8,400 nt of DNA from a virus (lineage: Duplodnaviria > Heunggongvirae > Uroviricota > Caudoviricetes): the IMG/VR virus record IMGVR_UViG_2778261349_000002, positions 1 through 8,400 of that record. One strand, given 5' to 3'. Shown one piece after another: positions 5,741-7,205 of this stretch (its first letter is position 1; each line of letters opens with the position of its first letter). A program made the translations under genes and the position numbers. The notes beneath the pieces are model-generated. The model had not been told where the DNA came from, did no database searches, and saw nothing but the letters and a program-made list of their open reading frames with translations.

Positions 5741-5768
5741 TTTATACACAACTAAATAAACCAGTCAA
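5741..5768 (-). promoter_or_regulatory. PR-like early-right promoter driving the cro-like operon
   Basis: On the minus strand: TTGACT (5768..5763), 16-nt spacer, TATAAA (5746..5741). Predicted start about 29 nt upstream of the cro-like ATG. Confidence 0.5.
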
Positions 5769-5772
5769 GTAT

Positions 5773-5801
5773 TTGCTTATTTTGCGATTACTAAAGATAA
5801 T
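5773..5801 (+). promoter_or_regulatory. PRM-like promoter for the repressor gene; predicted leaderless transcript
   Basis: TTGCTT (5773..5778), 17-nt spacer, GATAAT (5796..5801). Predicted start falls at or beside the A of the repressor ATG (5808), and no SD is visible upstream. Back to back with the PR-like -35 element. Confidence 0.4.
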
Positions 5802-5807
5802 GTATGT

Positions 5808-6179
5808 ATGGAAACAAAAGAGATTCGGCGTTTACGCCTCAAAGAGTGGTTCAAAGACAGGACTTTGCCGCCTAAAGAGAAAAGTTACTTATCTCAGTTA
5901 ATGAGCGGTAAAGCTACGTTTGGCGAAAAGGCAGCTAGACGTATTGAACAAACATATGGGATGCCTGGGGGATATCTTGATATTGAACCAGAAGACATAA
6001 CAGAGTCTCCATCATCAAGATCTATAGCATTAACCCCTAACCAATTAGAATTGCTACAAATATTTAGTGCTTTCCCTGATAATGAGCAGCAGGAGATCAT
6101 AAAAGAACTAAAAAACAAAAAAGAGGCTATGGAAGATCTTGTCGCACGTTGGTTGGCACGACAAGGTCGCCGAGCCTGA
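5808..6179 (+). CDS. CI-position HTH (XRE-type) repressor, 123 aa; C-terminal domain paralogous to the downstream PaaR-like regulator
   Basis: N-terminal HTH (SYLSQLMSGKATFGEKAARRIEQTYGMP). Divergent from the cro-like gene. No LexA-like peptidase domain. C-terminus TPNQLELLQIFSAFPDNEQQEIIKELKNKKEAMEDLVARWLARQ. Confidence 0.7.
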   Translation: METKEIRRLRLKEWFKDRTLPPKEKSYLSQLMSGKATFGEKAARRIEQTYGMPGGYLDIEPEDITESPSSRSIALTPNQLELLQIFSAFPDNEQQEIIKELKNKKEAMEDLVARWLARQGRRA

Positions 6180-6198
6180 CGGGATATATAGATATCAG

Positions 6199-6660
6199 AT
6201 GGGCGTACTCGAAATTAGTGCTCTTAGAATTAAGATGCTTCTGTTGGCAAAAGGCTGGAGCCAAGCAGAACTTGCGCGCAGAATTGGTATTGCTCAACAA
6301 TCCGTGCAACGGTGGGTTTGTGGTATCTCAAGCCCTACGGCAGCTAATCTAGATAAACTATCTGAAGTAACGGGACTTCCTCAGTATTGGTTTTTCTTAC
6401 CATTAAATGAAGAAAAAAAAGACAGGGCACAGGATATATTAAAAATAACCCCTAATCAAAAGGAACTACTTCAAACATTTGAGGCATTTCCAGAGGAAGA
6501 TCAACAGCAAATGCTTAAAGATATGAAGGAGAAAAAAGAAGCAATGGATCGTATAGTTGCAAGGTGGTTAGCAGCACAACAAAAAGTCAACCAAGCAGAA
6601 TACCAGCACTTACAAAACGAGGTTCACCATGAACACAACCCTTTCACCGATGGTTTCTGA
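6199..6660 (+). CDS. paaR: PaaR-like HTH transcriptional regulator, first gene of a three-component ParE-type TA operon (153 aa from ATG 6199; track start 6139 is a TTG)
   Basis: HTH (WSQAELARRIGIAQQSVQRWVCG). C-terminus TPNQKELLQTFEAFPEEDQQQMLKDMKEKKEAMDRIVARWLAAQ. Its 3' end overlaps the antitoxin start by 32 nt. Identification by context and memory of the paaR-paaA-parE systems described in E. coli O157:H7. Confidence 0.65.
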   Translation: MGVLEISALRIKMLLLAKGWSQAELARRIGIAQQSVQRWVCGISSPTAANLDKLSEVTGLPQYWFFLPLNEEKKDRAQDILKITPNQKELLQTFEAFPEEDQQQMLKDMKEKKEAMDRIVARWLAAQQKVNQAEYQHLQNEVHHEHNPFTDGF

Positions 6661-6820
6661 ATTTGAAACTGTCGAGCAAGAAAACAGTTACAACGAATGG
6701 CTGCGTGCGAAAGTAGCAGCGAGCCTTGCAGATCCGCGCCCAGCAATTCCCCATGACGAGGTTGAGCGTAGAATGGCAGAACGCTTTGCTAAAATGCGCA
6801 AGGAACGGAGTGAGCAGTAA
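6629..6820 (+). CDS. paaA: PaaA-type antitoxin of ParE (63 aa)
   Basis: 63 aa, same length as the PaaA2 antitoxin as recalled. GAGG SD with a 6-nt spacer. Its stop TAA is immediately followed by the toxin ATG (TAAATG). Confidence 0.75.
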   Translation: MNTTLSPMVSEFETVEQENSYNEWLRAKVAASLADPRPAIPHDEVERRMAERFAKMRKERSEQ

Positions 6821-7108
6821 ATGTTACCCGTGTTATGGCTTGAAAGCGCAGATACCGACTTGGATGATATAACCAGCTATATTGCACGCTTTGACATAGA
6901 TGCGGCAGAACGTTTATGGAAACGCTTAAGGACTTGCGTTCAGCCATTATCTGAGCATCCGTATTTATACCCGCCAAGTGACAGAGTGCCAGGTTTGCGT
7001 GAAATTGTAGCTCACCCCAATTACATTATTCTGTACCGAGTGACAATTTCAGGCATTGAAATTGTTAACGTAGTTCACGCCCGCCGACAGTTCCCTGTAA
7101 CACCTTAA
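6821..7108 (+). CDS. parE: ParE/RelE-superfamily toxin, 95 aa
   Basis: C-terminal ISGIEIVNVVHARRQFP and overall ParE-like pattern; tight coupling to the upstream small antitoxin. Confidence 0.8.
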   Translation: MLPVLWLESADTDLDDITSYIARFDIDAAERLWKRLRTCVQPLSEHPYLYPPSDRVPGLREIVAHPNYIILYRVTISGIEIVNVVHARRQFPVTP

Positions 7109-7130
7109 TCCCCCTAAAGCAAAACCTTCC

Positions 7131-7156
7131 CCCTCTCAAGAGGGAGGGTTATTCCT
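7131..7156 (+). terminator. Candidate intrinsic terminator after parE
   Basis: Stem 7131..7137 / 7142..7148 (7 bp with one G-U pair), loop aaga, followed by ttattcct. The U tract is imperfect. Confidence 0.35.
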
Positions 7157-7177
7157 GCCCAACAGTTAAGTTAGATA

Positions 7178-7205
7178 TTGACTGTTTAGTTTATTTTTGT
7201 ATAAA
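7178..7205 (+). promoter_or_regulatory. PL-like promoter, near-duplicate of the PR-like promoter
   Basis: TTGACT (7178..7183), 16-nt spacer, TATAAA (7200..7205), followed by C. Same -35, spacer length, -10 and shared TTTAGTT spacer motif as the PR-like promoter. Points away from the immunity region. Confidence 0.45.

What the first reader, a model, noticed from the sequence alone, without database searches (positions are those of the whole stretch)
5741..7205. PR-like and PL-like promoters are near-identical copies on opposite sides of the immunity region
Both promoters read TTGACT, 16-nt spacer, TATAAAC, and both spacers contain TTTAGTT. They face outward on either side of the repressor and TA block, as lambda PR and PL do. 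The similarity implies a common operator embedded in the spacers, presumably bound by the 123-aa repressor. The inserted TA operon would then sit inside the repressor-protected immunity region.
Basis: seen in the sequence. Interest (0 to 1): 0.5.

Follow-up and report, generated by a model that had tools for sequence, protein, structure and literature searches.

The report
Matched prophage PR/PL promoters sharing operators
The two look-alike outward-facing promoters are real and are the PR and PL promoter-operator sites of a known type of E. coli prophage lysis/lysogeny switch (the CP-933P PaaR2/YdaS/YdaT type), so the finding is correct but largely ordinary; the one unusual feature is a second repressor-like gene placed behind the first.

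Summary
Window 5739-5768 (- strand) and 7178-7207 (+ strand) form a 30-nt inverted repeat, 25/30 identical, reading TTGACT-16 nt-TATAAACT. None of 1000 dinucleotide shuffles reached 25/30.

The window is a lambdoid prophage of Shiga-toxin-type E. coli. Its immunity region is orthologous to that of CP-933P/Sp12 of O157:H7. There, PaaR2 (CI analogue) and YdaS (Cro analogue) were shown to bind operators at PR, PRM and PL and to repress all three (Jurenas 2021).

The 123-aa protein is 74% identical to PaaR2. YdaS, YdaT, PaaA2, ParE2, a PRM with leaderless geometry and a perfect YdaT box are all present.

In 67 loci from many Proteobacteria, an 18-bp palindrome, GTTTAGT-N4-ACTAAAC, sits at about -67 and -29 from the repressor start codon. 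It recurs downstream behind an outward TTGAC or TTTAC. The window's best two matches to it are exactly at PR (5740-5757) and PL (7189-7206).

Three points qualify it:
- The shared TTTAGTT is 5 nt out of register between the two spacers.
- The operator runs into the -10 element.
- The Cro analogue probably binds the same sites.

One feature is new. A second, DicA-like repressor gene (6199-6660) lies between the repressor and the toxin-antitoxin pair, and no cognate operator for it was found.

The parts
5739..5768 (-). PR-like promoter core: -35 TTGACT (5768-5763); -10 either TATAAA (5746-5741, 16-nt spacer) or TAAACT (5744-5739, 18-nt spacer). It drives ydaS, ydaT and the replication genes.
   Evidence: orthologous to PR933P, whose start site was mapped by 5' RACE (PMC8630535)
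5740..5757 (.). Operator at PR: GTTTATA-CACA-ACTAAAT (7-4-7 palindrome). It overlaps the spacer and the -10 of PR and starts 68 nt before the repressor ATG.
   Evidence: 3 mismatches of 14 to the family consensus, one of the two best sites in the window. The same -67/-68 position holds in most of 67 loci. Among E. coli alleles, variation is confined to the 4-nt centre plus a single A/T change at position 7 of the left half-site.
5723..5729 (.). Isolated half-site ATTTAGA in the ydaS leader. It may correspond to the degenerate IR4 of CP-933P.
   Evidence: direct reading against the Sp12 spacer; weak evidence
5773..5801 (+). PRM-like promoter TTGCTT-17 nt-GATAAT. The predicted +1 is the A of the repressor ATG at 5808, giving a leaderless mRNA.
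   Evidence: Same hexamers and same spacing to the ATG as in Sp12/CP-933P, where leaderless expression was shown by 5' RACE and N-terminal sequencing. Too weak in the -35 to be listed by the consensus scan.
5779..5796 (.). Operator at PRM: ATTTTGC-GATT-ACTAAAG. The right half is good and the left half is degenerate. It starts 29 nt before the ATG.
   Evidence: 4 mismatches of 14; the -29 position recurs across the family; corresponds to IR1 of CP-933P
5808..6179 (+). 123-aa repressor, orthologue of PaaR2 (CI analogue). It has an N-terminal helix-turn-helix domain and a C-terminal oligomerisation domain, and no S24 peptidase domain.
   Evidence: 74% identity to Sakai ECs_2279; residues 1-62 match PDB 7nkv/8c3k/8c3l, E 2e-31; no Pfam family found; dN/dS 0.03-0.08
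5424..5705 (-). YdaS-family protein (Cro analogue). It is expected to bind the same operator regions.
   Evidence: Pfam PF15943; alignable with Sp12 YdaS; binding shown for the orthologue only
4995..5420 (-). YdaT-family protein (CII analogue).
   Evidence: Pfam PF06254
5410..5427 (.). Perfect YdaT box TTGATTTTCATGAATCAA at the ydaS/ydaT junction (PRE region).
   Evidence: Zero mismatches to TTGATTN6AATCAA. This is the position of the OM site footprinted in CP-933P (PMC9986795).
6199..6660 (+). Second repressor-like gene (153 aa; HTH_3 N-terminus, DicA-like). Its C-terminal domain is paralogous to that of the 123-aa protein. It starts 19 nt after the 123-aa stop codon and is probably co-transcribed from PRM.
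   Evidence: Pfam PF01381; NCBIfam DicA model hit, below its cut-off; 39% identity to the 123-aa C-terminus; 63% identity to the sole repressor of L004; dN/dS 0.15-0.24
6629..6820 (+). PaaA2-type antitoxin.
   Evidence: Pfam PF21217; 92% identity to Sp12 PaaA2
6821..7108 (+). ParE2-type toxin.
   Evidence: Pfam PF05016; 88% identity to Sp12 ParE2
7131..7148 (.). G+C-rich hairpin between parE and PL. It is terminator-like on both strands and probably marks the end of the PRM operon.
   Evidence: the T-run is weak
7165..7182 (.). Candidate second left operator: GTTAAGT-TAGA-TATTGAC. It overlaps the -35 of PL and starts 24 bp before the main PL operator. Only the left half is good.
   Evidence: GTTAAGT is conserved in four E. 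coli lineages. Paired sites 22-24 bp apart at PL occur in many family loci. 5 mismatches of 14 by my own count, so tentative.
7178..7207 (+). PL-like promoter core: TTGACT (7178-7183); -10 TATAAA (7200-7205) or TAAACT (7202-7207). It drives DUF1391 and, beyond the window, the dicB/exo/xis/int side.
   Evidence: The 30-mer is identical in L003 and L069 and differs at one base in L070, although neighbouring genes have dS 0.3-0.5. Orthologous PL933P is repressed about 100-fold by PaaR2 and YdaS.
7189..7206 (.). Operator at PL: GTTTATT-TTTG-TATAAAC. It sits in the same register relative to -35 and -10 as the PR operator.
   Evidence: 3 mismatches of 14, one of the two best sites in the window; family-wide PL-like sites preceded by TTGAC/TTTAC
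7208..7385 (+). Strongly conserved untranslated leader between PL and DUF1391.
   Evidence: Nearly invariant across immunity types A, B, C and Sp12. No covariation, so no structure can be claimed.

Best explanation
The two sites are the early-rightward (PR analogue, 5768->5739) and early-leftward (PL analogue, 7178->7207) promoters of a CP-933P-type lambdoid immunity region.

Each promoter carries, in the same register, an 18-bp 7-4-7 palindromic operator. The operator starts 5 nt after the -35 hexamer and ends inside the -10 element. It is a degenerate form of GTTTAGT-N4-ACTAAAC.

In the lysogen the 123-aa PaaR2-type repressor is made from a leaderless PRM transcript together with the second regulator and the PaaA2-ParE2 toxin-antitoxin pair. 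It binds these operators through its N-terminal helix-turn-helix domain, blocks RNA polymerase at PR and PL, and also occupies a weaker site on its own PRM. Its C-terminal oligomerisation domain (PaaR2 is an octamer in solution) could bridge the two operator clusters about 1.4 kb apart by DNA looping, as lambda CI does.

The YdaS protein (Cro analogue) is expected to compete for the same sites. YdaT (CII analogue) is expected to act at its perfect box at 5410-5427.

Shown here: the sequence similarity and its significance, orthology of every component, and conservation of operator position and half-sites across 67 loci.

Inferred from the orthologue and not tested for this allele: actual binding, repression, start sites and looping.
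For: The repeat is real and non-random.

The components are orthologous to CP-933P/Sp12:
- The 123-aa protein is 74% identical to PaaR2, and its DNA-binding domain matches solved structures 7nkv/8c3k/8c3l.
- YdaS, YdaT, PaaA2 and ParE are identified by Pfam.
- The toxin and antitoxin are 88-92% identical to the Sp12 proteins.
- The PRM hexamers and their distance to the ATG match the experimentally leaderless paaR2.
- A perfect YdaT box lies at the ydaS/ydaT junction.

Published experiments on the orthologue (PMC8630535): PaaR2 and YdaS footprint the ydaS-paaR2 spacer over both promoters. The 18-bp inverted repeats have half-site GTTTAGTAA. PL933P has -35/-10 elements identical to PR933P plus three operators. 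[quoted passage not shown]

New comparative evidence. In 67 loci encoding this DNA-binding domain, sites within 3 mismatches of GTTTAGT-N4-ACTAAAC number:
- 107 in the 170 nt before the repressor start, mostly at -67/-68 and -29;
- 0 in the first 300 nt of the gene;
- 95 further downstream, typically behind an outward TTGAC or TTTAC;
- only 6 in about 3.8 kb of far-upstream DNA per locus.

The window's two best matches are at PR and PL (2 observed against 0.3 expected).

Among E. coli alleles the PL 30-mer is invariant or changed at one base, while flanking genes have dS 0.3-0.5. PR changes fall almost entirely in the uncontacted 4-nt centre; the one half-site change is A/T at position 7 of the left half.

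Assignment to the 123-aa protein rather than the 153-aa one. A locus without the 153-aa gene has the same PR and PL (L003). A locus with only the 153-aa-type repressor has different operators, ACTTTAAAAGT, at its own PR and PL.
Against: There are no binding, footprint or start-site data for this allele.

The operators here are degenerate: 3 to 5 mismatches of 14 to the family consensus, and the half-sites read GTTTATA/GTTTATT/ATTTAGT rather than GTTTAGT. Affinity and occupancy order therefore cannot be read off from CP-933P.

Which hexamer is the real -10 (TATAAA at 16 nt or TAAACT at 18 nt) is unresolved.

Only one convincing operator per promoter is visible, plus one at PRM and tentative half-sites. 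CP-933P was described with three or four per side.

Looping is pure analogy.
Confidence: 0.85

Rival explanations
1. The shared operator is recognised mainly by the second, 153-aa DicA-like regulator (6199-6660), the classical third component of a paaR-paaA-parE cassette. On this reading the 123-aa protein is not the immunity repressor.
For: The 153-aa protein has a canonical HTH_3 domain. It is under purifying selection. It sits immediately upstream of paaA-parE. Its closest sole-repressor relative acts as the CI analogue of another prophage type (L004).
Against: Type A loci that lack this gene carry the identical PL 30-mer and a PR core identical to the window's; the whole spacer differs at 2 positions (L003). 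The L004-type repressor (63% identical, recognition helix QQSVQ[RK]W conserved) is flanked by a different operator, ACTTTAAAAGT, at its PR and PL: 6 hits against 0.54 expected. That operator is absent from the window's immunity region and from 20 kb around it. The GTTTAGT-type operator follows the PaaR2-type DNA-binding domain across 67 loci, whatever the C-terminal domain.
Confidence: 0.05
2. The similarity only reflects two strong sigma-70 promoters in A+T-rich spacers, or a recent duplication or gene conversion of a promoter. No shared repressor site is involved.
For: The identical parts include the -35 hexamer and the -10 region, which any strong promoter would conserve. The spacers match at only 11 of 16. 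The consensus scan finds about as many promoter-like sites as in shuffles, 4 against 3.6.
Against: The palindrome and its register are conserved far outside E. coli, where the promoters themselves differ; some loci have TTTAC instead of TTGAC. The half-sites are conserved and the centre is variable, which is the signature of a dimer-binding site and not of a promoter. A third copy lies on PRM, which has different hexamers. The orthologous sites are footprinted and repressed.
Confidence: 0.05
3. The sites are real operators but are functionally Cro-type (YdaS) sites. The 123-aa protein contributes little in this allele, whose left half-sites are degenerate, so the prophage switch is decayed or locked.
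For: In CP-933P, YdaS footprints the same region and represses PR, PRM and PL. The operators here have 3-5 mismatches. CP-933P itself is cryptic.
Against: The repressor gene is under strong purifying selection, dN/dS 0.03-0.08. The PL core is invariant across lineages. The prophage retains integrase, excisionase, replication and antitermination genes. A sequenced phage, Evi, carries the sister allele with the same site positions.
Confidence: 0.05

Closest known systems
Immunity region of cryptic prophage CP-933P / Sp12 of E. coli O157:H7 (PaaR2-PaaA2-ParE2 with YdaS-YdaT; Jurenas et al. 2021, PMC8630535; Prolic-Kalinsek et al. 2023, PMC9986795)
   Same: The gene order is the same: ydaT-ydaS divergent from repressor-paaA-parE, then PL. 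The repressor is 74% identical and the toxin and antitoxin about 90% identical. The spacers are about 100 bp, with back-to-back PR and a leaderless PRM using the same hexamers TTGACT, TTGCTT and GATAAT. Operators lie 68 and 29 nt before the ATG. PL repeats the -35/-10 of PR. The YdaT box TTGATTN6AATCAA lies at the ydaS/ydaT junction.
   Different: The operator half-sites have drifted: GTTTATA/ATTTAGT/GTTTATT here against GTTTAGT/GTTTAAT there. The PL operator lies 5 nt rather than 3 nt after the -35. Fewer recognisable operator copies are present. An extra DicA-like repressor gene is inserted between the repressor and paaA, replacing the paaA ribosome-binding region. The integration site is different, next to potC/potD.
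Bacteriophage lambda OR/OL with PR, PRM and PL, bound by CI and Cro
   Same: It works alike. Divergent PR and PRM lie next to the repressor gene. A second outward promoter, PL, lies beyond the genes co-transcribed with the repressor (rexAB in lambda, the toxin-antitoxin pair here). Palindromic operators overlap the promoters and are shared by repressor and Cro. The repressor mRNA is leaderless. A CII-type activator site is present. The repressor can form octamers (established knowledge of lambda; for the parallels).
   Different: There is no sequence homology of repressor, Cro or CII. The repressor lacks the S24 autocleavage domain, so it is not induced through RecA. The operator is 18 bp, 7-4-7, and A+T-rich, and forms part of the -10 itself. 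Three tandem operators per side are not evident here.
DicA/DicC-dicB control region of prophage Qin (E. coli K-12)
   Same: A short non-cleavable CI analogue sits at the same map position and controls a leftward operon that begins with ydfA (DUF1391) and includes dicB. The C-terminal domains of both window regulators resemble that of DicA.
   Different: Both hits fall below the DicA model's cut-off: 30.5 and 55.8 bits against 101. The N-terminal domain of the 123-aa protein is unrelated to DicA's HTH_3 domain. DicA's operators were not compared here.
LexA-like (S24 peptidase) CI repressors of Yersinia, Proteus, Erwinia and Burkholderiales prophages that carry the same N-terminal DNA-binding domain
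   Same: The N-terminal domain is up to 83% identical over about 55 residues. The same operator consensus occurs at the same -67 and -29 positions, with a PL-like copy downstream (L027, L031, L033-L035, L037, L039, L042, L043).
   Different: They carry a C-terminal autocleavage domain (PF00717) in place of the PaaR2/DicA-type oligomerisation domain, and they have no toxin-antitoxin pair in the operon as far as examined.

Membership tests
CP-933P-type (PaaR2/YdaS/YdaT) lambdoid immunity region | PaaR2-family repressor: N-terminal HTH domain, C-terminal oligomerisation domain, no S24 peptidase domain | tested here: met
   74% identity over the full length to Sakai ECs_2279; residues 1-62 match PDB 7nkv/8c3l; no PF00717 hit
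CP-933P-type (PaaR2/YdaS/YdaT) lambdoid immunity region | Divergently transcribed YdaS (Cro analogue) and YdaT (CII analogue) followed by replication genes | tested here: met
   PF15943, PF06254, DnaT-domain and lambda-P-like hits; gene order
CP-933P-type (PaaR2/YdaS/YdaT) lambdoid immunity region | About 100-bp spacer with PR and a PRM that starts at the repressor ATG (leaderless) | tested here: inconclusive
   The sequence geometry is the same as in Sp12: TTGCTT-17-GATAAT-6 nt-ATG in a 102-bp spacer. No start-site data exist for this allele.
CP-933P-type (PaaR2/YdaS/YdaT) lambdoid immunity region | 18-bp inverted-repeat operators (half-site GTTTAGTAA-like) overlapping PR and PRM | tested here: met
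   Sites at 5740-5757 (3 mismatches) and 5779-5796 (4 mismatches), at the family-typical -68 and -29 positions
CP-933P-type (PaaR2/YdaS/YdaT) lambdoid immunity region | PL beyond the toxin-antitoxin genes, with -35/-10 elements identical to PR and operator copies | tested here: met
   25/30 identity and identical hexamers; operator at 7189-7206
CP-933P-type (PaaR2/YdaS/YdaT) lambdoid immunity region | paaA2-parE2 directly downstream of the repressor in one operon | tested here: not met
   PaaA2 and ParE2 are present and about 90% identical, but a 153-aa regulator gene is interposed. A sister locus, L003, with the same repressor allele has the canonical three-gene order. The locus is therefore a variant of the architecture.
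CP-933P-type (PaaR2/YdaS/YdaT) lambdoid immunity region | YdaT operator TTGATTN6AATCAA at the end of ydaS (PRE region) | tested here: met
   Perfect match at 5410-5427; position as in PMC9986795
CP-933P-type (PaaR2/YdaS/YdaT) lambdoid immunity region | Repressor and Cro analogue physically bind the operators and repress PR, PRM and PL | not testable with these tools
   Shown only for CP-933P by gel shift, DNase I footprint and gfp fusions
Lambda-type CI repressor (LexA-like, RecA-inducible) | C-terminal S24 peptidase autocleavage domain | tested here: not met
   No PF00717 hit in the 123-aa or the 153-aa protein. Relatives with the same N-terminal domain do carry it. The switch works like lambda's, but the repressor is not a member of that family.
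DicA family (NCBIfam NF007257) | Full-length score above the curated cut-off of 101 bits | tested here: not met
   The 153-aa protein scores 55.8 bits over nearly the full length. The 123-aa protein scores 30.5 bits, C-terminal part only.

The most novel reading that the evidence does not exclude
The PRM operon of this prophage encodes two CI-analogue repressors in tandem. They have different DNA-binding domains but paralogous oligomerisation domains.

The second, 153-aa protein has no cognate operator in its own prophage. It may therefore serve as a 'guard' repressor that gives the lysogen immunity to a second, heteroimmune group of lambdoid phages, those with ACTTTAAAAGT-type operators such as the L004 type. 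Alternatively it may form mixed oligomers with the 123-aa repressor and tune looping or bistability.

The arrangement persists under purifying selection in at least three diverged E. coli lineages and in seven viral contigs.
Probability: 0.25. Interest if true: 0.55.

Novelty: new member of a known kind. Interest (0 to 1): 0.28.

Why it matters
For the finding as stated, little is new. A PR/PL pair with identical hexamers and shared operators flanking a repressor-toxin-antitoxin block was described experimentally for CP-933P in 2021. This window is a diverged allele of that switch.

Two things add modest value.

First, the comparison of 67 loci turns the loosely defined CP-933P 'inverted repeats' into a sharp rule. 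The rule is GTTTAGT-N4-ACTAAAC about 67 and 29 nt before a leaderless repressor gene, and again at an outward promoter downstream. It holds from Enterobacterales to Burkholderiales and Pasteurellales, whether the DNA-binding domain is fused to an oligomerisation domain or to a LexA-like cleavage domain. This gives a directly testable operator model and a way to annotate PR, PRM and PL in many prophages.

Second, the tandem second repressor shows that repressor genes can be stacked within one immunity operon next to an addiction module. That bears on how heteroimmunity and prophage stability evolve in Shiga-toxin-producing E. coli.

Tried and rejected
(1) Rfam, E-value mode, on the whole window. 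Only sok (768-942) and two weak hits turned up far from the finding. Nothing lay in 5700-7400, so no known RNA element explains the sites or the PL leader.

(2) Pfam gave no family for the 123-aa protein. Its identity came from DNA similarity to Sakai Sp12 instead.

(3) The first scan of genome contigs, with the single protein, found no relatives. A 20-sequence alignment was needed.

(4) I tested whether the 153-aa regulator has operators in the window, using the motif found at PR and PL of the L004-type prophage (ACTTTWWAAGT). There was none in the immunity region. The three matches at 2 mismatches elsewhere in the window are fewer than chance, and the single palindromic site at 1 mismatch in the 20-kb locus (reported on both strands) is no more than chance.

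(5) I looked for a sole-repressor context of the window-type 153-aa gene, to read its operator. All close relatives in E. coli genomes and in viral contigs sit behind a 123-aa gene, so its specificity remains unknown.

(6) Consensus folding of the conserved PL leader in six loci gave 37 predicted pairs and no compensatory change. No structure can be claimed.

(7) The alternative operator register at PL, starting at the perfect half-site GTTTAGT (7184-7190), was rejected because its partner half (TTTTGTA) does not match. The register 7189-7206 agrees with PR and with the family.

(8) The supplementary tables of the CP-933P paper did not contain the promoter or operator sequences in readable form. 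I located the published sites in the Sp12 sequence myself.

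
Full report
**1. The observation**

The reverse complement of window 5739-5768 reads TTGACTGGTTTATTTAGTTGTGTATAAACT. The + strand of 7178-7207 reads TTGACTGTTTAGTTTATTTTTGTATAAACT. The repeat finder reports them as its longest inverted repeat: 30 nt, 83% identical, 1409 nt apart. A pairwise alignment shows identity across TTGACTG and TGTATAAACT and at 11 of 16 spacer positions.

The consensus promoter scan lists both sites, reading them as TTGACT-18-TAAACT. A degenerate pattern derived from the pair matches only these two places, with 0.00 expected. The best inverted 30-mer match between the two intergenic spacers is 25. None of 1000 dinucleotide-preserving shuffles reached it (mean 17.9, maximum 22). 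The best direct-orientation match of the left spacer to the rest of the window is only 19.

One detail needs correcting. The heptamer TTTAGTT is in both spacers but 5 nt out of register, so it is not the aligned shared element.

**2. What the region is**

The window is 100% identical to a prophage in E. coli strains 00-3076 and RM9245. In strain 00-3076 the prophage lies next to potC/potD. It carries integrase, excisionase, exonuclease and dicB on one side, and replication, RusA and Q-type antitermination genes on the other.

Around the finding the genes are as follows:

| Coordinates | Strand | Product |
|---|---|---|
| 4995-5420 | - | YdaT-family protein |
| 5424-5705 | - | YdaS-family protein |
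| 5808-6179 | + | 123-aa protein, no Pfam family |
| 6199-6660 | + | 153-aa HTH_3 protein |
| 6629-6820 | + | PaaA2-type antitoxin |
| 6821-7108 | + | ParE toxin |
| 7131-7148 | . | G+C-rich hairpin |
| 7178-7207 | + | right-hand promoter |
| 7386-7538 | + | DUF1391 |

A distant DNA search with the 123-aa gene hit the gene annotated 'phage repressor protein CI' of prophage Sp12 in O157:H7 Sakai. The proteins are 74% identical over their full length, and the segment LSQLMSG[KR]A[TS]FGEKAARRIEQTYGMP is almost unchanged. Residues 1-62 match the solved structures 7nkv, 8c3k and 8c3l with E about 1e-31.

Sp12 is the Sakai copy of CP-933P, and its 'CI' is PaaR2.

**3. What is already known about the orthologue**

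Jurenas et al. (mBio 2021, PMC8630535) reported the following:
- paaR2 is expressed from a leaderless PRM transcript.
- PaaR2 and YdaS footprint most of the 97-bp ydaS-paaR2 spacer, over both PR and PRM.
- The protected DNA contains 18-bp inverted repeats with half-site consensus GTTTAGTAA.
- PR, PRM and PL reporters are repressed by PaaR2 and by YdaS, about 100-fold for PL.

PaaR2 lacks the peptidase motif and is octameric in solution.

Prolic-Kalinsek et al. (PMC9986795) footprinted YdaT on TTGATTN6AATCAA at the end of ydaS.

**4. Correspondence of the sites**

I aligned the Sp12 and window spacers.

PRM is TTGCTT-17 nt-GATAAT followed by six bases and the ATG in both. In the window this is 5773-5801, with the ATG at 5808. 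The leaderless geometry is therefore preserved.

The PR operator of Sp12 (GTTTAGT-GTTT-AATAAAC) corresponds to window 5740-5757 (GTTTATA-CACA-ACTAAAT). The PRM operator (GTTTAGT-GATT-ACTAAAG) corresponds to 5779-5796 (ATTTTGC-GATT-ACTAAAG).

At PL the window has GTTTATT-TTTG-TATAAAC (7189-7206). It lies in exactly the same register relative to -35 and -10 as the PR operator. A candidate second site with a good left half (GTTAAGT) starts 24 bp upstream, at 7165-7182, over the -35.

A perfect YdaT box, TTGATTTTCATGAATCAA, lies at 5410-5427 on the ydaS/ydaT junction.

**5. Comparative test**

A protein search showed that the N-terminal domain also occurs fused to S24 peptidase domains in LexA-like repressors of about 210 aa. 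Using an alignment of 20 homologues, I fetched 64 loci from species-representative genomes. They span Enterobacterales, Pasteurellales, Burkholderiales and Nitrosomonadales.

The best inverted 30-mer between the upstream spacer and the downstream 4 kb repeatedly has the form CTTGAC-N4-5-GTTTAGT-N4-A[CA]TAAAC-T on both sides. An example is 27/30 in a Massilia locus.

I scored every 18-mer against GTTTAGT-N4-ACTAAAC, allowing up to 3 mismatches of 14, in 67 loci:

| Position relative to repressor start | Sites |
|---|---|
| 170 nt upstream (mostly at -67/-68 and -29) | 107 |
| First 300 nt of the gene | 0 |
| More than 300 nt downstream (usually 4-6 nt after an outward TTGAC or TTTAC) | 95 |
| Far upstream (about 3.8 kb per locus) | 6 |

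Sixty of the 67 loci have an upstream site and 55 have a downstream site. Paired downstream sites 22-24 bp apart are common.

In the window, the only two sites within 3 mismatches are the PR and PL operators, against 0.3 expected. The PRM site follows at 4 mismatches.

**6. Which protein binds**

Three architectures exist in E. coli:
- **Type A** (L003, strain STEC17-183) has the same YdaS and 123-aa alleles followed directly by paaA-parE. Its PL 30-mer is identical to the window's. Its PR core is also identical, and the whole spacer differs at 2 positions.
- **Type B** (L004) has only an HTH_3 repressor, 63% identical to the window's 153-aa protein, with the recognition helix QQSVQ[RK]W conserved. 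Its PR and PL share a different operator, ACTTTAAAAGT: 6 hits at its two operator regions against 0.54 expected.
- **Type C** is the window.

The type B motif is absent from the window's immunity region and from the 20-kb prophage segment. The operators therefore follow the 123-aa/YdaS pair and not the 153-aa protein.

Further support comes from the pattern of variation. Among type A and C alleles the genes have dS 0.3-0.5, yet the PL 30-mer is invariant (window, L003, L069) or changed at one base (L070). PR differs almost only in the 4-nt operator centre (CACA, TGCA, CGTA, CGCA); beyond that there is one linker base and one A/T change at position 7 of the left half-site. This is what is expected of a site contacted through its half-sites.

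**7. Mechanism proposed**

In the lysogen, PRM produces a leaderless transcript that encodes the 123-aa repressor, the 153-aa protein and PaaA2-ParE2, and that ends near the hairpin at 7131-7148. Dimers or higher oligomers of the repressor occupy the 7-4-7 operators that span the spacer and the -10 of PR and PL. This excludes RNA polymerase.

A weaker site in the PRM spacer gives autoregulation. Oligomerisation through the C-terminal domain may link the two operator clusters about 1.4 kb apart.

YdaS competes for the same DNA. YdaT acts at 5410-5427.

The sequence facts, the orthology and the comparative conservation are shown here. Binding, repression, start sites and looping are inferred from CP-933P and from the lambda paradigm.

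**8. The unexpected part**

The 153-aa gene starts 19 nt after the 123-aa stop codon. The insertion begins immediately after that stop codon and replaces the paaA ribosome-binding region of type A and Sp12. The antitoxin and toxin are about 90% identical in all types.

The C-terminal domains of the two regulators are paralogous, at 39% identity, and both resemble that of DicA.

The tandem arrangement occurs in about 17-19 of 5426 complete E. coli genomes, in at least three lineages (100%, 92.6% and 87% identity to the window), and in seven viral contigs. Every close relative of the 153-aa gene lies behind a 123-aa gene. The gene has dN/dS 0.15-0.24.

Its DNA target is unknown. A role as an extra immunity determinant against heteroimmune phages, or as a partner in mixed oligomers, is possible but untested.

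**9. Verdict**

The finding is a diverged member of an experimentally characterised kind of prophage switch and not a new system.

The added value lies in the family-wide operator rule and in the tandem-repressor variant.

Noticed in passing
window 6199-6660 (+): A second repressor-like gene (153 aa, HTH_3 N-terminus, DicA-like) lies between the PaaR2-type repressor and paaA-parE. Its C-terminal domain is paralogous to that of the 123-aa protein. No cognate operator was found in the prophage. The arrangement is conserved in at least three E. coli lineages under purifying selection.
   Followed up: partly
window 5410-5427: A perfect match (TTGATTTTCATGAATCAA) to the published YdaT operator TTGATTN6AATCAA spans the ydaS stop and the ydaT start. 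This implies a conserved PRE-type control point.
   Followed up: partly
window 7208-7385 (+): The untranslated leader between PL and DUF1391 is nearly invariant across prophages with different immunity types (A, B, C and Sp12), and most of the 3,657 E. coli records hit probably match here. Its 5' part is C-rich (CCAACCCACCC.GCCCCACAG). Consensus folding gave no covariation, and its function (nut-like, Rho-loading or other) is unknown.
   Followed up: partly
window 618-942 (-): A hok/sok type I toxin-antitoxin locus: a Hok-family ORF at 618-830 and an Rfam sok match at 768-942 (113 bits). A weak isrK-like match lies next to it at 528-609 (29 bits, below the gathering score).
   Followed up: no
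window 7131-7148: A G+C-rich hairpin, CCCTCTC-AAGA-GGGAGGG, is called terminator-like on both strands between parE and PL. The surrounding sequence differs among lineages, but a hairpin is kept at this place in L003, L069 and L070.
   Followed up: no
window 7652-8209 (-): A 185-aa ORF lies convergent to the PL transcript. It has no Pfam or NCBIfam family and sits in a low-G+C stretch between DUF1391 and dicB. It could be a cargo or defence gene.
   Followed up: no
loci L005-L068: [quoted passage not shown] This suggests that leaderless PRM expression is a family-wide trait.
   Followed up: partly
locus L078 (IMG/VR contig, match 2501-3077): In one viral contig the match to the 153-aa protein spans 577 nt instead of about 390 and is preceded directly by mid-gene sequence of a 123-aa-type repressor. 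This may be a fusion or a rearranged variant of the tandem pair.
   Followed up: no
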